A stretch of DNA of 57,638 nucleotides from Minisyncoccota bacterium (lineage in GTDB: Bacteria; Patescibacteriota; Minisyncoccia; Phycocordibacterales; CAJBRS01). The position numbers and the translations under genes were made by a program. Shown piece after piece: positions 1-35,998 of this stretch. Where the stretch lies: the NCBI GenBank assembly GCA_017881075.1, contig JADGRH010000001.1, forward strand, positions 1 through 57,638, in the 5' to 3' direction. Within the stretch, counting starts at the first letter, position 1, and each line of letters opens with the position of its first letter. The notes below the pieces were generated by a model, which saw only the letters and a list, made by a program, of their open reading frames with translations, did no database searches and was not told the DNA's origin.

Positions 1-638
1 AAACGAAGAACCTTACCAAGGTTAGAAATCTAGTTGAAGACATTTGGAAACTTATGTCGTTCGCAAGAACAATTAGACAGGTGTTGCATGGCCGTCGTCA
101 GTTCGTGGTTTGAATTGTTCCCTTAAGTGGGGTAACGAACGCAACCCTCGTTGGCTGTTACAAGTGTCAGCCGAGACTGCCCCAGATTTTGGTTATAACC
201 CCTCCCAACCCTCCCCTTGATTAAGGGGAGGGCGACACGCCTTAGGCGTGCGGGGGTGGGGTTGTAAGTAAAATCTGGGGAGGAAGGCGAGGATGACGCC
301 AGGTCAGCATGTCCCTCTGATATCCTGGGCTACACACATAATACAATCGCCGTTACAACGCGACGCAAAACCGCAAGGTAGAGCAAATCGTTAGAAAAGC
401 GGCGCCAGTTCGGATTGAGGTCTGCAACTCGACCTCATGAAGCCGGAATTGCTAGTAATCGCGGGTCAGCTATACCGCGGTGAATACGTTCTCAAGTCTT
501 GTACTCACCGCCCGTCAACTCAAGGAAACCAGAAGTACCCAAAATCTCACCTAGCGTGGGCCTACGGTAAATTTGGTAACAGGGAGTAAGTCGTAACAAG
601 GCACGGGTAGCGGAAGCTGCTCGTGGAATAATTCAAAT
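1..638 (+). rRNA. rrs: 16S rRNA, 3' portion (partial, cut by window edge)
   Basis: Conserved 16S blocks are present: AACGAAGAACCTTACC (1-20), GCATGGCCGTCGTCAG, GGTAACGAACGCAACCC, GGAGGAAGG..GATGACGCCAGGTCAGCATG, GGGCTACACAC, GAATACGTTC, CCGCCCGTCA and AAGTCGTAACAAGG. Helix 45 is a 10-bp stem with a GGAA loop at 602-625. The 3' end is approximate. Confidence 0.9.
181..280 (+). other. Expansion/insertion in 16S helix 40 (about 100 nt where E. coli has a 15-nt hairpin)
   Basis: It lies between GAGACTGC and GGAGGAAGG. The outer stem is CCCCAGATTTT/AAAATCTGGGG. It encloses GC-rich sub-hairpins CCCTCCCC-ttgattaa-GGGGAGGG and CGACACGCC-ttag-GCGTGCG. Confidence 0.75.
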
Positions 639-795
639 TGAAAAACGTACTGAGGCGTTCGCGTCGAAGTACTGACCGAGTCGATTTTGCGCACTCCAAT
701 TGGGTGCACAAAGGATCGTAGATATCCTAAAGCTACAGACAGCCGGGAAAGACCGGCATCATTGAACGGAACAAAAGAAAGAATGCTAACACTGA

Positions 796-822
796 AAAAG
801 CGCCCTAACGGGCGCTTTTTTG
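796..822 (+). terminator. Rho-independent terminator downstream of the 16S
   Basis: Stem GCGCCC, loop taac, stem GGGCGC, followed by TTTTTT. Confidence 0.7.
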
Positions 823-826
823 CTGG

Positions 827-855
827 TTGACTTTTAATGTGAAATGTGATAAAAT
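827..855 (+). promoter_or_regulatory. Sigma70-like promoter (TTGACT, 17 nt, TGaTAAAAT)
   Basis: -35 TTGACT at 827-832, a 17-nt spacer, and an extended -10 TGaTAAAAT ending at 855. The ATG of the small ORF is 9 nt downstream. Confidence 0.5.
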
Positions 856-864
856 ACAGAAAGC

Positions 865-1035
865 ATGAAAAAAAATAAAAATGATCTTTCCCGTTTCGAG
901 GGCCCAAGTGACTGGGAGCGCGCGCGGCAGCGACGTAATTTTAATCGTCTCCGCATGGTCTGCATCGCAGTCATCGTTGTTGGAGGGGCAGCCGTCGCTA
1001 CCTTTTATTGGTGTGTTGTCGGTCAACTTTCATAA
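865..1035 (+). CDS. Small single-pass membrane protein (56 aa), hypothetical
   Basis: Own translation: MKKNKNDLSRFEGPSDWERARQRRNFNRLRMVCIAVIVVGGAAVATFYWCVVGQLS. It has a basic N-terminus and one TM helix. It sits between a promoter and a hairpin at ~1050-1085. It is below the 60-aa cutoff of the ORF track. The overlapping track ORF 881..1069 looks non-protein-like. Confidence 0.3.
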   Translation: MKKNKNDLSRFEGPSDWERARQRRNFNRLRMVCIAVIVVGGAAVATFYWCVVGQLS

Positions 1036-1134
1036 CGAGTTAGTTTTGCGACGCCGCCATCTCTTTTAGAGATTGGCGGTGTTCTGTTTATATAACTTCC
1101 ATTTTCAGCCTATTTTTGTTATCTTTTAGAACAC

Positions 1135-1207
1135 GCGCTTGTAGCTCAGTTGGTAGAGCACATCACTGATACTGATGGGGTCCCAGGTTCGAATCCTGGC
1201 AGGCGCA
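1135..1207 (+). tRNA. tRNA-Ile (anticodon GAU)
   Basis: Cloverleaf: acceptor GCGCTTG/CAGGCGC, D-arm GCTC..GAGC, anticodon stem CATCA/TGATG with loop CTGATAC, T-arm CCAGG-TTCGAAT-CCTGG. CCA is not encoded. Confidence 0.9.
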
Positions 1208-1214
1208 CAAGACA

Positions 1215-1241
1215 AAAAATCCAAACTGCTTTGGATTTTTG
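1215..1241 (+). terminator. Rho-independent terminator after tRNA-Ile
   Basis: AAAAATCCAAA-ctgc-TTTGGATTTTT. Confidence 0.6.
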
Positions 1242-1357
1242 CGTACTTGTGCGAGGCGGAGCCATGTTTTCTGAGCACAGAAAACGGGCGAGCCGGGGTC
1301 GCGAAAATTTCGTTGCAACGAAATTATTTGTGACCACGACATGTTATTATTCTAACC

Positions 1358-2278
1358 ATGAATATCTTTTACATCCTTCTCACCGTCCTTGGCCTCTGTC
1401 TTTTTGAAATTATAAGCAGTATTGATAATGCCATTGTTAATGCAGAAGTGCTTTCGACGATGGGGAAGAAGGCTCGGGGGTGGTTTCTATTTTGGGGTAT
1501 TCTCTTTGCAGTGATAGTGGTGAGGGGATTATTGCCGTGGCTGATCGTTTGGTTGACGGTTCCTTCGCTTGGTCCAATTGGAGCACTGACGGCCACTTTC
1601 AGCAATGATCCGCAGGTGGCGGCGGCCATCCAACAGTCAGCGCCGGTACTGCTTCTTGGCGGCGCCGTTTTTTTGATCTTTTTGTTTTTTCACTGGCTAT
1701 TTTTGGAATCAAAGAATTATGGTCTGCCACACGAGAGATTCTTCCGTGCCCAAGGAGTTTGGTTTTTTGCTGTTGTCTCTATTGTCCTCGCCTTCATTGT
1801 TTGGGAGGCATTGCAAATCAATCCAATGCTTGCTTTTGGAGCGGTCATTGGCTCTACCGCTTTCTTCATTACTCATGGTTTTAAAGAGAATGCTGAAAAC
1901 AGCGAAAAGAAACTTTTAAATAATAACCGTCTTTCGGATCTTAGTAAGTTATTTTATTTGGAAGTGATTGACGCTACCTTTTCCATTGATGGAGTACTAG
2001 GGGCGTTTGCCTTCACACTTTCAGTTCCATTAATTATTTTAGGTAATGGTCTCGGCGCCTTCGTCCTTCGCCAGCTTACTGTAAGCAATATTGAGCGGAT
2101 TAAAAAATATCGTTTTCTAAAAAATGGAGCAATGTATTCAATATTCTTTCTTGGTTTGATTATGCTTTTTGATAGTTTCGGCTTACATATTCCAAATTGG
2201 GTCTCACCGGTAACCACTTTTGTTGTGATCATTTATTTCTTTTTGAAATCGAGAATTCCAGAAGAGTTGGTGCCGTAA
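1358..2278 (+). CDS. Integral membrane protein, TerC/DUF475-like
   Basis: 306-aa polytopic membrane ORF. The N-terminal motif FEIISSIDNAIVNA is typical of the TerC/DUF475 family. Confidence 0.6.
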   Translation: MNIFYILLTVLGLCLFEIISSIDNAIVNAEVLSTMGKKARGWFLFWGILFAVIVVRGLLPWLIVWLTVPSLGPIGALTATFSNDPQVAAAIQQSAPVLLLGGAVFLIFLFFHWLFLESKNYGLPHERFFRAQGVWFFAVVSIVLAFIVWEALQINPMLAFGAVIGSTAFFITHGFKENAENSEKKLLNNNRLSDLSKLFYLEVIDATFSIDGVLGAFAFTLSVPLIILGNGLGAFVLRQLTVSNIERIKKYRFLKNGAMYSIFFLGLIMLFDSFGLHIPNWVSPVTTFVVIIYFFLKSRIPEELVP

Positions 2279-2321
2279 ACAACTTGCAAATTTAGAGTCG
2301 ATATAATACATATAATAAATT

Positions 2322-2403
2322 GGGCGCGTGGCGGAATTGGTATACGCGTACGCTTCAGGAGCGTATGCCGCAAGGCTTGAGAGTTCAAATCTCTCCGCGC
2401 CCA
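2322..2403 (+). tRNA. tRNA-Leu (anticodon CAG)
   Basis: Acceptor GGGCGCG/CGCGCCC, anticodon stem TACGC/GCGTA with loop TTCAGGA, long variable arm TGCCGCAAGGCT, T-arm GAGAG-TTCAAAT-CTCTC. Confidence 0.9.
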
Positions 2404-2405
2404 CA

Positions 2406-2477
2406 CGGGGCATGGTGTAACGGTAACATTTACGATTCGGGTTCGTAAGACTCTGGGTTCAAATCCCAGTGCCCCGA
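2406..2477 (+). tRNA. tRNA-Pro (anticodon CGG)
   Basis: Acceptor CGGGGCA/TGCCCCG, anticodon stem TACGA/TCGTA with loop TTCGGGT, T-arm CTGGG-TTCAAAT-CCCAG. Confidence 0.85.
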
Positions 2478-2503
2478 AAGCATAGTGTATAATTTAATTA
2501 TTA

Positions 2504-2574
2504 GGGCCCATGGTATAGCAGTAACACACGTCCATGGCATGGACGAGTCCGGGGTGCGATTCCCCGTGGGTCCA
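2504..2574 (+). tRNA. tRNA-Ala (anticodon GGC)
   Basis: Acceptor GGGCCCA/TGGGTCC with the G3:U70 identity pair, anticodon stem CGTCC/GGACG with loop ATGGCAT, T-arm CGGGG-TGCGATT-CCCCG. Confidence 0.85.
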
Positions 2575-2586
2575 CAGAGTAATGTA

Positions 2587-2657
2587 GGGCTCGTAGTACA
2601 GTGGTAGTACACCCCATTCGCATTGGGGAGACACGGTTTCGATTACCGTCGAGTCCA
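2587..2657 (+). tRNA. tRNA-Ala (anticodon CGC)
   Basis: Acceptor GGGCTCG/CGAGTCC with G3:U70, anticodon stem CCCCA/TGGGG with loop TTCGCAT, T-arm ACGGT-TTCGATT-ACCGT. Confidence 0.85.
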
Positions 2658-33294: not shown

Positions 33295-33335
33295 GGAAAA
33301 GCCCTCGAAAGAGGGCTTTTCCTTTGGCGTTTTTC
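33295..33335 (+). terminator. Rho-independent terminator
   Basis: GGAAAAGCCCTC-gaaa-GAGGGCTTTTCC followed by a T-rich stretch. Confidence 0.65.
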
Positions 33336-33340
33336 TTAGC

Positions 33341-33370
33341 TTGACAAAAGACTATCAAGTATGGTATAAT
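33341..33370 (+). promoter_or_regulatory. Near-consensus sigma70 promoter (TTGACA, 18 nt, TGgTATAAT) driving the DGR target gene
   Basis: TTGACA at 33341-33346. TATAAT at 33365-33370, preceded by TGg. Confidence 0.65.
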
Positions 33371-33505
33371 ACAGCCAAATAAGGTCTTTGAAATTACTTG
33401 CGAATGGTCATAGCCAAAAGCCTCGATTTCTTCGAGATTTCTGGCTATGACCATAAAGGTCTAGTGTCTGTCTCTAATAGGGATAGATAAACCCACAACC
33501 AGCAG

Positions 33506-34075
33506 TTGAAAGGAAATATTATGAAATACGCAGATGTGACACTCGGTCGTGTCGAAGCAGTTTGGAACAAACTCGGTGGCGAAGAAGGGGTTGATAAACT
33601 CCTTCGCGGAGAACTAACGTTTTCCGAACCGGAAAAGCCAAAACCCGGAACGAACGTTTTCACCGTCACGGTAGACTTCGGACAAACGCTCGAAGAGATG
33701 ATCGCCGCCGGTCGCTACGACTGGAAGAACGACGACATCACTACGAAGCGATTCCCGGTCAAAGGCGAAGGCAAGAAAGAAGTCGAGATCACTGTGGTCC
33801 ACTTCAATCGCGTCATTGAGTCCGACGAGGCAATCAAGGAGATGGATGCGCTGGGTTATCGCCCCGCGACCATTGAAGAACTCTTGGGGTTCGGCAAAGA
33901 GCACCCGGATCTTCAAAGGAGTTTCCCGATCATCGCCCTCGGTTCCGTCGGCGAGGTGCGCGGCCACCGTGGCGTGCCTTACCTCCGCGGGCGCGGCTCC
34001 AGGCGCAACCTCGACCTCCGCTGGTTTGACCATGGGTGGAGTGCCGACTGCCGGTTCGCGTTCGTTCGCAAGTAA
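33506..34075 (+). CDS. DGR variable (target) protein, with the VR at the C-terminus
   Basis: The last 42 codons match the TR except at TR adenines. It has no signal peptide. The track uses a TTG start at 33506. The ATG at 33521 (MKYADV) is preceded by AAAGGA and is more likely. Confidence 0.85.
   Translation: MKGNIMKYADVTLGRVEAVWNKLGGEEGVDKLLRGELTFSEPEKPKPGTNVFTVTVDFGQTLEEMIAAGRYDWKNDDITTKRFPVKGEGKKEVEITVVHFNRVIESDEAIKEMDALGYRPATIEELLGFGKEHPDLQRSFPIIALGSVGEVRGHRGVPYLRGRGSRRNLDLRWFDHGWSADCRFAFVRK
33943..34069 (+). repeat. DGR variable repeat (VR), 127 nt
   Basis: Gap-free alignment to 34445-34571. There are 21 mismatches: 20 at TR adenines and 1 T-to-G that is synonymous (GTT to GTG). Confidence 0.9.
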
Positions 34076-34164
34076 CTCTTAGATCTTTGGTTTCTGGTTC
34101 TTCTTGAATCTTAAACCTTAGCTCTTAGCGATTTTGGTGGCGTATCCACCATAAACTTCAACCT

Positions 34165-34194
34165 CAGCCCTGCGTTTTTCACAACGCGGGGCTG
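34165..34194 (+). terminator. Hairpin/terminator downstream of the target gene
   Basis: CAGCCCTGCGT-ttttcaca-ACGCGGGGCTG followed by AATTTATTT. Confidence 0.45.
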
Positions 34195-34444
34195 AATTTA
34201 TTTATGTATAATAAAGACGAGCAAAAGGTATTGTGTCCGCGGGTACGCTTTCGGACGCCTAGCTCAAGTATCACTTAGTCGGGAATGTTTTTGGGTACGC
34301 TTGAAAACAGAGTGACTATTTAAACTTTCAAAAAATGAAGATACTTGGTGTAGGGTGTTAGGGAATTATGATTCCGAATAAGATACAACCTTTAGAATGC
34401 TACGGAGTATTCAAGAGGTGGTGGCATAGAAGACACTCTCCACA

Positions 34445-34571
34445 TTCCGTCGGCAAGGTTAACGGCAACCGTAACGTGCCTTACCTCAACAGGAACGGCT
34501 CCAAGCGCAACCTCAACCTCAACTGGTTTGACAATAGGTGGAATGCCAACTACCGGTTCGCGTTCGTTCGC
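34445..34571 (+). repeat. DGR template repeat (TR), 127 nt, 31 adenines, rich in AAC/AAT codons
   Basis: In the VR frame it reads ..VGKVNGNRNVPYLNRNGSKRNLNLNWFDNRWNANYRFAFVR. The A-free 3' end CCGGTTCGCGTTCGTTCGC is identical in TR and VR (IMH-like). Confidence 0.9.
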
Positions 34572-34579
34572 TACTCTCT

Positions 34580-34984
34580 TCATTTCTCTCCTACCTTTAG
34601 GGCAGGGGAGTTTTGTTTTATAAGTTGATTTCTCCAACCGCCAAGCATTTTTCCTATCTCTTCTAGACTTTTGCTTAACAGGACATACTTTTTAGTATCC
34701 ACACCTTTAGTCTCCCAAAGGAGATTAAGAAAGAATTTAAGAGTATCCAATTTGACTATCGATTTGGTTATAAATGGCGGCTTCTGATCCTTGCTCAAAA
34801 AGCTTGCTGTAATTGCCCCTTCTATCGCTTCTATAAAAAATAGATCAATTTTTGTACCCAATGTGTATTTTTGCTGTCTTGGAATATGCTGTTGGTATTC
34901 TTGCCATAGTTTATATGCACTTGTAAACTTTGATATTACTCCGGGCGTTGGGGGGGGGGGTACCTTATAGTCTTTTTGATCCAT
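34580..34984 (-). CDS. avd: DGR accessory variability determinant (Avd; four-helix-bundle, 23S-IVS protein family)
   Basis: 134 aa. KLWQEYQQHIPRQQKYTLGTKIDLFFIEAIEG and EEIGKMLGGWRNQL resemble Avd/S23-IVS family motifs. It is adjacent to the RT but on the opposite strand. Confidence 0.75.
   Translation of the reverse strand: MDQKDYKVPPPPTPGVISKFTSAYKLWQEYQQHIPRQQKYTLGTKIDLFFIEAIEGAITASFLSKDQKPPFITKSIVKLDTLKFFLNLLWETKGVDTKKYVLLSKSLEEIGKMLGGWRNQLIKQNSPALKVGEK
34950..34960. repeat. G11 (C11 on the avd strand) homopolymer tract inside avd codons 9-12
   Basis: Counted from the sequence: ...gcgttGGGGGGGGGGGtacc.... On the minus strand it encodes VPPPPT. Confidence 0.95.
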
Positions 34985-35002
34985 AAAAAAATCTTAACAT
35001 AA

Positions 35003-35998
35003 ATGCGACAACTAAATCTAAAGTACGAAGATATTGTATCTATCGAAGATCTTCTCGATGCGTGGAAAGAATTTAAGAGAGGGAAGATCCAGAAAAGAGA
35101 TGTAATTGAATTCAACCTTCACCTTATGGATAACCTTATCCAATTACATCGGGAACTAGCTTCTCTAACATATACTCATCACGGTTATTATGCTTTTAAT
35201 ATATCCGATCCTAAACCAAGGAACATTCATAAAGCCATTGTAAAGGATAGGCTTTTGCATCACGCTATATACCAGAAGATATATCCTTTTTTTGATTCTA
35301 CTTTTATATATGATTCCTATTCTTGTCGAAAAGAAAAAGGAACTCATATAGCTATGGAGCGGTTTAAGAGGTTTATTTATAAGGTGTCTAAAAATAATAC
35401 TAAACAATGCTGGGTATTAAAGTGTGATGTTAAAAAATTCTTTGCTTCAATTGATCATTTAATTTTGTTTCGAATTCTTAAAAGTTACATTTCCGATGAA
35501 AATATATTATGGCTTATCGTGCAAGTAGTAAGGAGCTTTACTGGAGCAAAAGAAGGAGTGGGGTTACCTCTTGGTAATTTAACTTCACAACTTTTGGTAA
35601 ATGTTTATATGAATGAATTTGATAAATACATTAAACATGTTGTTAAAGCAAAATATTATATTCGCTACGCTGACGATTTTGTTATTTTAAGTGAGGATAG
35701 AGATGGGCTTTTGGAGCTCACACCTAAAATTAGTGATTTTTTGAAAGAAGAATTGGGTCTGTCGCTTCACCCAGACAAAGTGTTAGTTAGATCTATTTCT
35801 TCCGGTGTTGATTTCTTGGGCTGGGTTCATTTTCCGGATCATAGAATTCTTCGAACAGTAACTAAGAAAAGAATGATTAAAAAGATGAAACATTCTGAAA
35901 AAGAGGAGACGACACAATCGTATTTAGGTATGTTGAGTCACGGAAATGCTAAAAAGCTGGAAAAGAAAATTAAATCAGAAATTTTAGCACCAAAATAG
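35003..35998 (+). CDS. DGR reverse transcriptase
   Basis: RT motifs are present, including the DGR-diagnostic LPLGNLTSQLLVNVYM ([LIV]GxxxSQ) and the catalytic YIRYADDFVIL. Confidence 0.9.
   Translation: MRQLNLKYEDIVSIEDLLDAWKEFKRGKIQKRDVIEFNLHLMDNLIQLHRELASLTYTHHGYYAFNISDPKPRNIHKAIVKDRLLHHAIYQKIYPFFDSTFIYDSYSCRKEKGTHIAMERFKRFIYKVSKNNTKQCWVLKCDVKKFFASIDHLILFRILKSYISDENILWLIVQVVRSFTGAKEGVGLPLGNLTSQLLVNVYMNEFDKYIKHVVKAKYYIRYADDFVILSEDRDGLLELTPKISDFLKEELGLSLHPDKVLVRSISSGVDFLGWVHFPDHRILRTVTKKRMIKKMKHSEKEETTQSYLGMLSHGNAKKLEKKIKSEILAPK

What the first reader, a model, noticed from the sequence alone, without database searches (positions are those of the whole stretch)
33506..35998. Complete diversity-generating retroelement with a textbook adenine-specific TR/VR mismatch pattern
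**TR/VR alignment**
- The 127 nt at 33943-34069 is the 3' end of the 189-aa ORF. It aligns without gaps to 34445-34571.
- I counted 21 mismatches. Twenty fall on TR adenines (20 of the 31 TR adenines are changed).
- The single non-A change is T to G at the third position of a Val codon, so it is synonymous.
- The remaining 95 non-A positions are identical.

**Supporting features**
- The TR is built from AAC/AAT (Asn) codons, as DGR templates are.
- The A-free 3' end CCGGTTCGCGTTCGTTCGC is conserved in both copies, as an IMH would be.
- A reverse transcriptase with the DGR-specific LGNLTSQ motif and YADD lies next to it, as does an Avd-family four-helix-bundle protein.

**Unusual points**
- The target is short and has no signal peptide, so it is apparently cytoplasmic. 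It ends in W....RFAFVRK.
- By eye, the target gene is clearly more GC-rich than avd and the RT.
Basis: partly seen in the sequence, partly recalled or inferred. Interest (0 to 1): 0.85.

Follow-up and report, generated by a model that had tools for sequence, protein, structure and literature searches.

The report
Patescibacteria DGR with upstream template-RNA leader
This is a real, complete diversity-generating retroelement of the type already catalogued in Patescibacteria (tiny candidate-phyla bacteria); the element itself is ordinary, but its whole clade carries a conserved folded RNA in front of the template and a slippery G-run in the helper gene avd that I found described nowhere.

Summary
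**Observation:** confirmed. VR 33943-34069 and TR 34445-34571 align without gaps. There are 21 mismatches, 20 of them on TR adenines (P=1.6e-14).

**Components**
- The RT's best solved relative is the Bordetella phage DGR RT (E=2.7e-45).
- avd lies on the minus strand and passes Pfam bAvd.
- The 184-aa target models confidently as a divergent C-type-lectin-like domain.

**Classification:** the layout target–TR–(avd)–RT is the published "B3" architecture. B3 accounts for 90% of catalogued CPR DGRs. Small targets without a signal peptide are also a known trait of this clade. The element is therefore a new member of a known kind.

**Clade-wide features, all present in the window, that I found described nowhere in the searchable library**
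1. A ~230-nt covarying RNA leader lies 5' of TR. One continuous leader strand pairs with both flanks of TR. A terminator-like hairpin follows TR. This suggests a self-contained ~400-nt template RNA, with the BPP-1 "spacer" functions moved upstream.
2. A poly-G tract sits in the first codons of avd (G11 in the window). Its length varies between loci, and it puts the start codon in each of the three frames about equally often.
3. An array of CTTGG-like repeats follows the target's stop codon.

Current activity could not be tested.

The parts
33341..33370 (+). Perfect sigma-70-type promoter-like site (TTGACA-18-TATAAT with TG), ~150 nt upstream of the target start
   Evidence: 12 of 12 matches. 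Function inferred.
33404..33454 (+). 23-nt inverted repeat (87% complementary, 5-nt loop) in the target's long 5' leader
   Evidence: I2. Not followed up.
33521..34075 (+). DGR target gene, 184 aa. It has an N-terminal two-helix module (~35 aa), a linker, and a C-type-lectin-like core whose last ~42 residues are the VR.
   Evidence: ORF. Homologues start MKYP. AF2 pLDDT 92 (full length) and 97 (core). Foldseek hits are C-type lectin domains only. No Pfam, NCBIfam or PDB sequence match.
33943..34069 (+). Variable repeat (VR)
34051..34069 (+). IMH-like A-free 19-mer at the VR 3' end. It is followed by AAGTAA, the conserved ...CGCAAGTA(A/G) end of target ORFs in this clade.
34076..34130 (+). Array of ~7 CTTRG-type short repeats directly after the target stop codon
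   Evidence: ~9-fold enrichment at this fixed position in related loci with different targets. Role unknown.
34164..34195 (+). Intrinsic-terminator-like hairpin (13 bp) plus T-run ending the target transcription unit
34205..34212 (+). Extended -10 promoter-like element (TGTATAAT), 3 nt before the conserved 5' end of the leader
   Evidence: Sequence. -10-like hexamers stand at the same place in related loci (by eye). Inferred.
34216..34444 (+). Conserved structured leader of the template RNA. P1 34235-34256. P2 34278-34316. Strand a 34333-34341. Near-invariant A34343. P3 34348-34359 paired with 34432-34443. P4 ~34361-34376. P5 34388-34419.
   Evidence: (42 pairs, 95.8% paired, 31 compensatory). 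No Rfam match.
34445..34571 (+). Template repeat (TR). Its last 19 nt (34553-34571) are IMH*-like and identical to the VR end.
34577..34585 (+). Strand a' (TCTTCATTT), 5 nt after TR, complementary to leader strand a
   Evidence: 87.6% paired in 52 loci, against 47-53% slid and 75.9% row-permuted
34586..34619 (+). Stem-loop (34586-34610) followed by TTTTGTTTT. Terminator-like, and positioned like the Avd-binding stem-loop of BPP-1.
   Evidence: present in 22 of 22 loci with different stem sequences.: 55 further loci, mean dG -16.5. Handa 2024.
34580..34984 (-). avd (134 aa), convergent with TR and divergent from the RT gene
   Evidence: bAvd 3.9e-10; DivGenRetAVD 1.4e-16, below cut-off
34950..34960 (.). 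G11 homopolymer (C11 in the avd sense, codons 9-12 PPPP), 43-53 nt upstream of the RT start codon. In frame here.
   Evidence: (the only G/C run of 8 or more in the window)
35003..35998 (+). DGR reverse transcriptase (331 aa) with LGNLTSQ and YADD

Best explanation
**What it is.** This is a chromosomal DGR of the Patescibacteria-specific clade, with cassette target(+) - TR(+) - avd(-) - RT(+). It rewrites the last ~42 codons of a 184-aa C-type-lectin-like protein.

**Shown here**
- All parts are intact.
- The VR differs from the TR at adenines only (one synonymous T>G aside).

**Established for DGRs (BPP-1) and inferred here**
- The RT-Avd complex copies the TR RNA into cDNA.
- It misincorporates at template adenines.
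- The cDNA replaces the VR, with the A-free 19-mer marking the 3' boundary.

**Inferred from comparative analysis**
1. The template RNA is probably a separate ~400-nt transcript.
   - It would start at about 34216, just behind a TGTATAAT box.
   - It would end at the hairpin and U-run at 34586-34619.
2. A ~230-nt folded leader precedes TR.
   - One continuous leader strand pairs first with the 9 nt just 3' of TR (a:a').
   - After a 3-nt bulge with a near-invariant A (A34343), the same strand pairs with the 12 nt just 5' of TR (P3).
   - TR is therefore held as a closed loop.
3. This matches, in strand order and spacing, the BPP-1 spacer strand.
   - That strand forms the template:primer duplex and then the cPRT-stop duplex.
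   - Here it lies upstream of TR instead of downstream.
4. By analogy, I propose that cDNA synthesis is primed at or next to the bulged A and starts at about C34576.
   - It would stop at P3.
   - The post-TR hairpin would play the Avd-binding role.
5. Expression of Avd, and hence mutagenesis, is probably gated by the hypermutable G/C tract in avd. In the window the tract is in frame.
For: **DGR identity**
- The TR/VR pattern gives P=1.6e-14.
- The RT is closest to bRT, 2.7e-45.
- Avd is present.
- The target has a C-type-lectin-like model.

**Clade membership**
- About 28 genome loci share the same gene order and show ~20 A-specific mismatches each.
- All 60 metagenome RT relatives with enough upstream sequence have avd on the minus strand just upstream of the RT.
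- This is the published B3 architecture.

**Leader RNA**
- RNAalifold predicts 42 pairs.
- 95.8% of cells are paired, against 40-51% with slid partners. 31 pairs have compensatory changes. 0 of 500 shuffles reach the observed values.
- A covariance model of the core hits once per DGR, always just 5' of TR.
- On 58 matches in the metagenome loci (one of which duplicates the genome locus L004): 96.1% paired, 20 of 23 pairs compensatory, covariation score 0.673 against at most 0.151 slid.

**a:a' helix**
- Own-partner duplex energy against permuted partners: -8.34 vs -4.36±0.47 (0 of 20000) and -8.78 vs -6.81±0.26 (0 of 5000).
- 87.6% of cells are paired on a sequence-anchored alignment of 52 loci, against 47-53% slid and 75.9±1.0% row-permuted.
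- The bulged A is conserved in 55 of 56 sequences.

**Other elements**
- A hairpin plus U-run follows TR in 22 of 22 and 55 of 55 loci.
- The 170 nt after the hairpin (antisense of avd) yield no consensus structure, 0 pairs.
- L021 holds two target-leader-TR cassettes and no avd or RT on its 4.8-kb contig.
- BPP-1 reference anatomy: Handa 2024.

**Tract**.
Against: - No transcript ends, cDNA or read data are available. Current activity, the RNA's 5' and 3' ends and the priming site are all inferred.
- The hairpin may only attenuate transcription. Read-through into antisense avd and the RT gene is not excluded.
- The -35 region of the proposed TR promoter is poor, and the consensus scan did not call it.
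- a:a' is short and A/U-rich.
  - On a crude ungapped alignment it scores only 71% paired against 47-58% slid.
  - Four of 16 representative loci gave weak duplexes.
- The covariance-model alignment is fitted to the model's structure, which inflates pair counts.
- Foldseek matches for the target are weak (E≥0.06, TM 0.44-0.53). The solved DGR variable proteins are not among the top hits.
- I could not read Paul et al. 2017, the primary paper on CPR DGRs. The leader or the tract may already be described there.
Confidence: 0.85

Rival explanations
1. The template RNA follows the canonical BPP-1 layout. TR is co-transcribed with the RT gene through antisense avd, and the primer and stop strands lie downstream of the post-TR hairpin. 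The conserved upstream leader then has another job, such as RNA stability, processing, regulation or protein recruitment.
For: - In the only DGR solved, every functional RNA element except one stop-duplex strand lies 3' of TR.
- Handa 2024 report putative Avd-binding stem-loops and up/downstream stop duplexes in 207 of 278 Avd-containing DGRs, CPR members included.
- Termination at the hairpin is unproven.
Against: - The 170 nt after the hairpin align without gaps, as a protein-coding stretch would (conservation looks codon-periodic by eye). They give no consensus structure, 0 pairs.
- The leader gives 42 covarying pairs.
- The leader strand a-bulge-b reproduces the order and spacing of Sp 47-56, 57-58 and 59-70.
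- P3 sits exactly where cDNA synthesis should stop.
- L021 has leader-TR cassettes without an adjacent avd-RT.
Confidence: 0.25
2. The element is an intact-looking but currently silent or relic DGR. The VR pattern records past activity only.
For: - No population data are available.
- A pattern scan of the metagenome collection found no other copy or VR variant of this element.
- In related loci two thirds of avd genes have the start codon out of frame.
- Some relatives are decayed: L008 has a degenerate TR and no RT; L036 has only a fragment of the RT.
Against: - In the window the RT (331 aa, YADD, LGNLTSQ), avd (134 aa, in frame through G11) and the target are all open.
- Non-A positions of TR and VR are 95 of 96 identical. 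This argues for recent homogenisation by retrohoming rather than long drift.
Confidence: 0.2
3. The G/C tract in avd is not a heritable ON/OFF switch. Either frames are restored at the RNA or ribosome level (transcriptional slippage or programmed frameshifting on the C-run), or the apparent frameshifts are homopolymer assembly errors.
For: - The uniform frame distribution (22:23:21) is also what one expects if DNA length does not matter because slippage during expression restores the frame.
- Homopolymers are error-prone in sequencing.
- L017 has assembly Ns at this spot.
Against: - Consensus errors would not put two thirds of 66 independent assemblies out of frame.
- In four loci the same position is occupied by (GA)n repeats of different length, three of them in frame. 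These fit slipped-strand DNA variation.
- Tract lengths of 7-14 differ between close relatives: L006 has C9, L007 has C11.
Confidence: 0.35
4. The TR/VR pair is an ordinary duplication or gene-conversion tract, unrelated to the RT.
For: None beyond the existence of a repeat.
Against: - Twenty of 21 differences fall on A of one copy only, P=1.6e-14.
- All those A are at codon positions 1 or 2.
- The same pattern recurs in ~24 related loci.
Confidence: 0.01

Closest known systems
Patescibacteria (CPR) DGRs: architecture B3, TR-(avd)-RT, of Wu et al. 2018 (PMC5758913); DGR clade 2 of Roux et al. 2021 (PMC8144416)
   Same: - Same gene order and orientation.
- Same host group: every organism name or record title given for the target homologues points to Patescibacteria or is uninformative, apart from a few bins labelled otherwise.
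- Chromosomal location, here between murB and secA.
- A small target with no signal peptide, transmembrane segment or Pfam domain.
- RT 52-65% identical to more than 600 relatives.
   Different: - Nothing structural separates the window from this group. It is one more member.
- The leader RNA, the avd tract and the CTTGG array are properties of the group. They do not appear in the two surveys' main text that I could read.
- The supplements of Wu 2018 and the paper of Paul 2017 were not available.
Bordetella phage BPP-1 DGR (mtd-avd-TR-brt), the mechanistic prototype (Handa 2018 and 2024)
   Same: - The RT is homologous (E=2.7e-45) and includes the LTSQ motif and R74 equivalents.
- It has an Avd.
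- Mutagenesis is adenine-specific.
- The VR lies at the C-terminus of a lectin-like fold.
- A stem-loop follows TR directly, like Sp 3-33.
- A duplex sits immediately 5' of TR, like the cPRT stop.
- One continuous strand pairs with both TR flanks, separated by 2-3 unpaired nt.
   Different: - avd is on the opposite strand and downstream of TR.
- The strand that clamps TR, and most of the folded RNA, lies 5' of TR rather than in a 3' spacer.
- The RNA seems to have its own promoter and terminator.
- There is no GC-rich inverted repeat right after the IMH. A CTTGG-type repeat array stands there instead.
- The host is a cell, not a phage.
- The target is not a tail fibre.
Retron msr-msd RNA
   Same: Topology only. 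A structured RNA 5' of the template carries the proposed priming nucleotide, and helices bring the 3' end of the template to it. An RT of a related superfamily is involved.
   Different: - The RT groups with DGR RTs, not retron RTs (2.7e-45 against 2e-17 and weaker).
- There is a TR/VR pair and an Avd.
- The priming chemistry here is unknown.
Simple-sequence-repeat contingency loci (homopolymer phase variation, e.g. Neisseria, Campylobacter, Bordetella)
   Same: - A G/C homopolymer of 7-14 nt, or a dinucleotide repeat, lies within the first codons of a gene.
- Its length differs between relatives.
- All three frames are populated.
   Different: - The gated gene is the accessory protein of a mutagenesis machine, not a surface antigen or restriction system.
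- Switching within a population has not been shown.
- No paper in the library links DGRs with such tracts.

Membership tests
Diversity-generating retroelement (DGR) | Reverse transcriptase of the DGR clade ([I/L]GxxxSQ in motif 4, YxDD), closer to bRT than to group II intron or retron RTs | tested here: met
   LGNLTSQ and YADD are in the ORF. Best PDB match is 8ub7 (bRT), E=2.7e-45, against 7.1e-19 for group II and 2e-17 for retron-type RTs. NCBIfam has no DGR RT model; its best hit, group II, is far below cut-off.
Diversity-generating retroelement (DGR) | TR/VR near-repeat whose differences fall on adenines of the TR | tested here: met
   20 of 21 mismatches are on TR-A, P=1.6e-14.
Diversity-generating retroelement (DGR) | VR at the 3' end of a protein-coding target; TR adenines at codon positions 1 and 2 (AAC/AAT-rich) | tested here: met
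   The VR forms the last 42 codons. TR A count by codon position is 15/17/0. There are 9 AAC and 2 AAT codons.
Diversity-generating retroelement (DGR) | IMH / IMH* boundary element at the 3' end of VR and TR | tested here: met
   An identical A-free, GC-rich 19-mer ends both copies, and the sequences diverge right after it. Its function is not testable here.
Diversity-generating retroelement (DGR) | GC-rich inverted repeat directly downstream of IMH (present in only ~34% of DGRs, Wu 2018) | tested here: not met
   The first inverted repeats are ~65 nt (34135-34149) and ~95 nt (34164-34195, terminator-like) after the VR. A CTTRG repeat array lies in between. This is not a universal feature.
Diversity-generating retroelement (DGR) | Accessory variability determinant (Avd) | tested here: met
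   Pfam bAvd 40.6 bits (cut-off 40), E=3.9e-10. NCBIfam DivGenRetAVD E=1.4e-16 but 60.7 bits, below the cut-off of 80.
Diversity-generating retroelement (DGR) | Ongoing diversification (population heterogeneity restricted to A positions) | not testable with these tools
   No reads are available. An exact-pattern scan of metagenome contigs for VR variants found nothing.
C-type-lectin-fold DGR variable proteins | C-type-lectin fold with the VR forming the C-terminal strands and binding face | tested here: inconclusive
   The AF2 core model has pLDDT 97 and pTM 0.91. All top Foldseek PDB hits are C-type lectin domains, with probability up to 0.95. TM is only 0.44-0.53 and E≥0.06, and the solved DGR variable proteins are absent from the top 50. 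There is no sequence-level match.
CPR DGR architecture B3 (Wu 2018) | Core order TR-(avd)-RT with avd on the reverse strand | tested here: met
   TR 34445-34571 (+), avd 34580-34984 (-), RT 35003-35998 (+). The same order is found in ~28 genome loci and 60 of 60 metagenome loci. Definition.
BPP-1-type DGR RNA (avd-TR-Sp) | Stem-loop immediately 3' of TR (Avd-binding element) | tested here: met
   Hairpin at 34586-34610, 15 nt after TR. Present in all 22 and 55 related loci with varying stem sequence. Binding to Avd is not testable.
BPP-1-type DGR RNA (avd-TR-Sp) | Primer strand and cPRT-stop strand located in a structured spacer 3' of TR | tested here: not met
   There is no conserved structure in the 170 nt after the hairpin. 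The equivalent strand (a, bulge, b) lies 5' of TR.
SSR-mediated phase-variable (contingency) gene | Simple-sequence repeat in the 5' coding region whose length changes shift the frame | tested here: met
   G11 at 34950-34960 lies in avd codons 9-12. A tract is present in 58 of 60 metagenome loci (56 poly-G of 7-14 nt, 2 dinucleotide repeats) and in most genome loci (16 poly-C plus 4 (GA)n). Start-codon frames are 22:23:21.
SSR-mediated phase-variable (contingency) gene | Reversible length variation within one population, with matching ON/OFF expression | not testable with these tools
   This needs reads or single-cell and clone data.

The most novel reading that the evidence does not exclude
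**Two linked claims about this Patescibacteria DGR clade (more than 600 members)**

1. The template RNA is a self-contained ~400-nt non-coding RNA.
   - The primer and stop strands that lie 3' of the template in the Bordetella phage prototype are circularly permuted into a folded 5' leader.
   - Reverse transcription would then be primed from an upstream, near-invariant bulged adenosine, a retron-like topology.
   - Target-plus-template cassettes could be served in trans by a separate avd-RT module.

2. Mutagenesis is switched stochastically by a hypermutable G/C (or GA) tract in the first codons of avd. This would be a phase-variable switch placed on top of a hypermutation device.
Probability: 0.4. 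Interest if true: 0.75.

Novelty: new member of a known kind. Interest (0 to 1): 0.5.

Why it matters
**As a DGR call, this adds one more member to a well-populated class.** It matters little on its own.

**The comparative follow-up matters more.**
- Everything known about how DGR RNAs prime and stop cDNA synthesis comes from one phage element.
- Patescibacteria carry the densest known population of cellular DGRs, and their cassette is arranged differently.
- Suppose the covarying 5' leader does take over the role of the phage spacer.
  - It would show that the RNP architecture is conserved while the RNA is permuted.
  - It would give a compact, defined RNA (~400 nt) plus two small proteins for reconstitution and engineering.
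  - It would explain how RT-less target-TR cassettes can exist.
- A slippery tract in avd would be the first suggested ON/OFF control of a DGR. It bears on how cells limit the cost of self-mutagenesis.
- The family of small lectin-like proteins without a signal peptide remains an open question: what do ultra-small symbiotic bacteria diversify, and against what ligand?

Tried and rejected
**Searches that found nothing**
- Sequence searches for the target found nothing: Pfam and NCBIfam, PDB with the single sequence and with a profile.
- Rfam at gathering and at E≤10 found no family over 33300-35100 beyond chance-level hits. The RT-1 to RT-19 motifs of Weinberg 2017 are therefore excluded.
- An exact-pattern scan of metagenome contigs for VR variants of this very element found none. 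Population-level diversification could not be addressed.

**Attempts that failed for technical reasons**
- The search for related loci with the 50-sequence alignment failed for lack of a conserved stretch. It worked with 30 closer sequences.
- RNAalifold on a plain MAFFT alignment of the post-TR hairpin gave no pairs, because stems of different length were out of register. Per-sequence folds show the hairpin in all loci.
- RNAduplex on whole leaders against long 3' flanks gave uninterpretable long duplexes. It was replaced by short anchored segments.
- A regex anchor for the TR 3' flank picked wrong sites. It was replaced by a MAFFT alignment of the flank.
- A crude ungapped alignment of a:a' gave only modest excess pairing.

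**Leads dropped**
- The single-sequence MFE fold pairs the leader's 5' end (GACGAGC) with the TR 3' end. This pairing is not conserved in relatives, by eye, so I dropped it.
- I rejected three alternative readings of the locus:
  - a group II intron or retron RT;
  - a plain duplication;
  - a prophage context, because the neighbours are a Wzy_C-domain (O-antigen-ligase-type) membrane protein, MurB, SecA and an IMP-cyclohydrolase-like protein.

**Papers not available**
- Wu 2018's supplements.
- Paul 2017.

Full report
**1.

The 127 nt at 33943-34069 (the end of the target ORF) and 34445-34571 align without gaps.
- There are 21 mismatches. Twenty are at adenines of the second copy (14 A>G, 6 A>C, no A>T). 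One is a synonymous T>G.
- With 31 A among 127 positions, the chance of at least 20 of 21 mismatches hitting A is 1.6e-14.
- All TR adenines are at codon positions 1 or 2, and the TR frame has 9 AAC and 2 AAT codons.
- Both copies end in the same A-free 19-mer, and similarity stops right after it.
- No further copy exists in the window.

**2. The parts**

*RT (35003-35998)*
- It has LGNLTSQ and YADD.
- Its best solved relative is the Bordetella phage DGR RT: 8ub7, E=2.7e-45, against 7e-19 for a group II intron RT and 2e-17 for a retron-type RT.

*Avd*
- The ORF is on the minus strand (34580-34984), convergent with TR and divergent from the RT gene.
- It passes the Pfam bAvd cut-off (40.6 against 40 bits).
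- It matches NCBIfam DivGenRetAVD at 1.4e-16, below that model's cut-off.

*Target*
- It most likely starts at ATG 33521 (184 aa).
- It has no Pfam, NCBIfam or PDB sequence match.
- It has at least 155 homologues. The few that carry an organism name are Patescibacteria hypothetical proteins.
- AlphaFold models are confident: pLDDT 92 for the full length and 97 for residues 44-184.
- Foldseek finds almost only C-type lectin domains, with probability up to 0.95. TM is only 0.44-0.53 and E≥0.06.
- The fold is therefore lectin-like but remote from solved examples. It is not a new scaffold.

*Context*
- The locus is chromosomal: 16S rRNA and tRNAs at the window start, and a Wzy_C-domain (O-antigen-ligase-type) membrane protein, MurB, SecA and an IMP-cyclohydrolase-like protein around the element.

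**3. It belongs to a known class**

- A scan of species-representative genomes with the target family returned 51 loci. Nearly all are titled as Patescibacteria or unclassified bins.
- About 28 of them have exactly target(+)-TR(+)-avd(-)-RT(+), with an RT 52-65% identical.
- Each shows ~20 adenine-specific TR/VR differences.
- Wu et al. 2018 define this order as architecture B3. [quoted passage not shown]
- Roux et al. 2021 describe a Patescibacteria-restricted DGR clade whose targets typically lack transmembrane or known domains. They leave open whether these proteins are truly non-membrane.
- The GC contrast is also clade-wide. Targets stay near 0.54-0.60 GC whatever the host GC, on average 15 points above the RT. 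I have no tested explanation for this.

**4. What lies between the target and TR**

The 370-nt gap contains three elements in order:
- a terminator-like hairpin for the target gene (34164-34195);
- a TGTATAAT box (34205-34212);
- a ~230-nt stretch that is conserved across the related loci.

The conserved stretch is a folded RNA.
- RNAalifold on 15 diverse sequences predicts 42 pairs in six helices.
- 95.8% of cells are paired, against 40-51% when partners are slid. 31 pairs have compensatory changes, and 0 of 500 shuffles reach the observed values.
- No Rfam family matches it.

A covariance model of its 3' half finds exactly one copy per DGR, always directly 5' of TR.
- I then sampled the clade through its RT instead of its target. 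There are at least 579 relatives in metagenome contigs, of which 80 were fetched.
- The model hit 58 of them. By my reading of the locus tables, that is all but two (L071, L099) of those with enough upstream sequence.
- Only 14 of the 40 loci with enough sequence carry this target family.
- On these matches 96.1% of cells pair and 20 of 23 pairs show compensatory change. The caveat is that the alignment is fitted to the model.

**5. How the leader relates to TR**

- Helix P3 (34348-34359 with 34432-34443) ends one nucleotide before TR starts.
- Six nucleotides upstream of P3's 5' strand lies an A-rich segment (a, 34333-34341). It is complementary to the 9 nt that begin 5 nt after TR (a', 34577-34585).
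- This pairing co-varies.
  - Own-partner duplexes are more stable than permuted ones in two independent sets: -8.34 against -4.36±0.47, and -8.78 against -6.81±0.26. No permutation reached the observed value.
  - The 3' flank was also aligned by sequence alone. On that alignment 87.6% of cells pair in 52 loci, against 47-53% slid and 75.9±1.0% with rows permuted.
  - A cruder alignment gave weaker support.
- Strands a and b are separated by a 3-nt bulge whose middle A is conserved in 55 of 56 sequences (A34343).
- Right after a' comes a 7-14-bp hairpin and a U-run, in all 22 and 55 loci examined, with differing stem sequences.
- The 170 nt beyond it, antisense to avd, align without gaps, as coding sequence would. 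They have no consensus structure.

**6. Reading this against BPP-1**

The phage RNP has the following layout (Handa 2024).
- The spacer 3' of TR forms an Avd-binding stem-loop (Sp 3-33).
- It then provides a primer strand that pairs with the TR 3' end (Sp 47-56, priming A56).
- Two unpaired nucleotides follow.
- Next comes the strand that pairs with the sequence just 5' of TR to make the cPRT stop (Sp 59-70).

The Patescibacteria RNA has the same three items:
- a hairpin right after TR;
- a strand pairing at the TR 3' flank;
- after 3 nt, a strand pairing at the TR 5' flank.

The double-pairing strand, however, lies upstream of TR. My best reading is a circularly permuted DGR RNA, transcribed on its own.
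- It would be primed at or beside the bulged A.
- It would stop at P3.
- This topology recalls retron msr-msd.
- The helices are shown by covariation. Priming, termination and protein contacts are inferred.
- L021 supports modularity. It has two tandem target-leader-TR cassettes, with 19 of 20 TR/VR differences on A in one of them, and no avd or RT on the 4.8-kb contig.

**7. A slippery tract in avd**

- The window has G11 at 34950-34960 (C11 in the avd sense, codons 9-12). It is the only G/C run of 8 or more in 57.6 kb.
- In 511 kb of related genome loci, 16 of the 18 G/C runs of 8 or more sit at this same spot: 14 counted by the script, plus L029 and L035 by coordinates. So do all four (GA)n arrays of 6 or more repeats.
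- In the metagenome set, 58 of 60 loci have a tract there. Fifty-six are poly-G of 7-14 nt, mostly 9 or 10, and two are dinucleotide repeats.
- Close relatives differ in length (L006 has C9, L007 has C11; (GA)n arrays of 7 to 17 repeats).
- The ATG upstream of the tract is in frame with the Avd domain in 22 loci, +1 in 23 and +2 in 21. In the genome set the split is 6 in frame and 11 out of frame (plus the window).
- A conserved tract with a random frame is what a hypermutable switch at equilibrium would give. Slippage during transcription or translation could give the same picture. Assembly error alone is unlikely to put two thirds of independent assemblies out of frame.
- In the window avd is in frame.
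- No paper in the searchable library links DGRs with such tracts.

**8. Other clade-wide features**

- Target ORFs end in ...CGCAAGTA(A/G).
- They are followed by 3-7 CTTGG-like repeats (window 34076-34130).
- This position shows ~9-fold enrichment in loci with unrelated targets.
- It replaces the GC-rich inverted repeat of the phage element. Its role is unknown.

**9. Verdict**

- The element is a new member of a known, abundant class. On that ground alone it is ordinary.
- Current activity is untested.
- The leader RNA is strongly supported.
- The a:a' clamp and the upstream-priming model are moderately supported.
- The avd tract is very consistent in occurrence, but its mode of action is open.
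- All three are properties of the clade. They appear undescribed, with the caveat that Paul et al. 2017 and the supplements of Wu 2018 could not be read.

Noticed in passing
window 34950-34960 (and the same position in L004-L044 and L056-L135): A G/C homopolymer of 7-14 nt, or (GA)n, lies in the first codons of avd, 43-53 nt upstream of the RT start. It is nearly universal in the clade and its length varies. The start-codon frame relative to the Avd domain is uniformly distributed (22:23:21). It may be a phase-variation or slippage gate on the DGR.
   Followed up: yes
window 34076-34130; related loci directly after target stop codons: An array of 3-7 CTTGG/CTTAG-like motifs with ~9-10 nt spacing follows the conserved ORF end CGCAAGTA(A/G). 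It is enriched ~9-fold at a fixed position in loci with different target families. It is also present after some 'orphan' target homologues and absent after others (L001-3, L022, L023, L032, L039, L048).
   Followed up: partly
window 33341-33454: A perfect sigma-70-type promoter (TTGACA-18-TATAAT) is followed by a 23-nt inverted repeat (33404-33426 / 33432-33454), in a ~150-nt leader before the target gene. It may be a regulatory hairpin or attenuator.
   Followed up: no
window 33521-33625; P0105, P0110, P0114, P0118; L021:969-1595; L008:6001-6582: The N-terminal ~35-aa two-helix module MKYxDxxLGxVEAxxNKLGGxEGVxRFL is shared by proteins whose cores belong to at least two unrelated families. 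At least one of these has its own leader and TR-like stretch next to it (L021). Other members of the target family carry different N-terminal modules. This suggests domain shuffling onto variable lectin-like cores.
   Followed up: partly
L021 (4.8-kb contig) and L008: L021 carries two tandem target-leader-TR cassettes and no avd or RT on the contig. L008 has a leader but a decayed TR and no RT. Leader-TR units can exist apart from the avd-RT module.
   Followed up: partly
L001-L003 (P0002, 70% identical to the window target): The closest homologue of the target sits as two tandem paralogues inside a conjugative-element-like region (relaxase, TrwB/TraG-type coupling protein, DnaG-like primase, RHS/YD-repeat protein). 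There is no DGR within 6 kb and no CTTGG array.
   Followed up: no
window 33521-33942 against 34580-35998; 24 related loci: Target genes outside the VR hold ~0.54-0.60 GC irrespective of host GC (0.38-0.59). They average 15 points above the adjacent RT (window 0.52 against 0.33). Unexplained.
   Followed up: partly
VRs of the window and of 23 related loci: Fixed substitutions at TR adenines are biased towards G. My hand sum of the per-locus counts gives about 292 A>G, 111 A>T and 87 A>C. The window has 14, 0 and 6. Either the RT's misincorporation spectrum or selection could be responsible.
   Followed up: no
window 1-2657: The window opens with the 3' 575 positions of a bacterial 16S rRNA (1-638). 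A tRNA follows at 1135-1207, then four clustered tRNAs at 2322-2657. No 23S rRNA follows directly.
   Followed up: no
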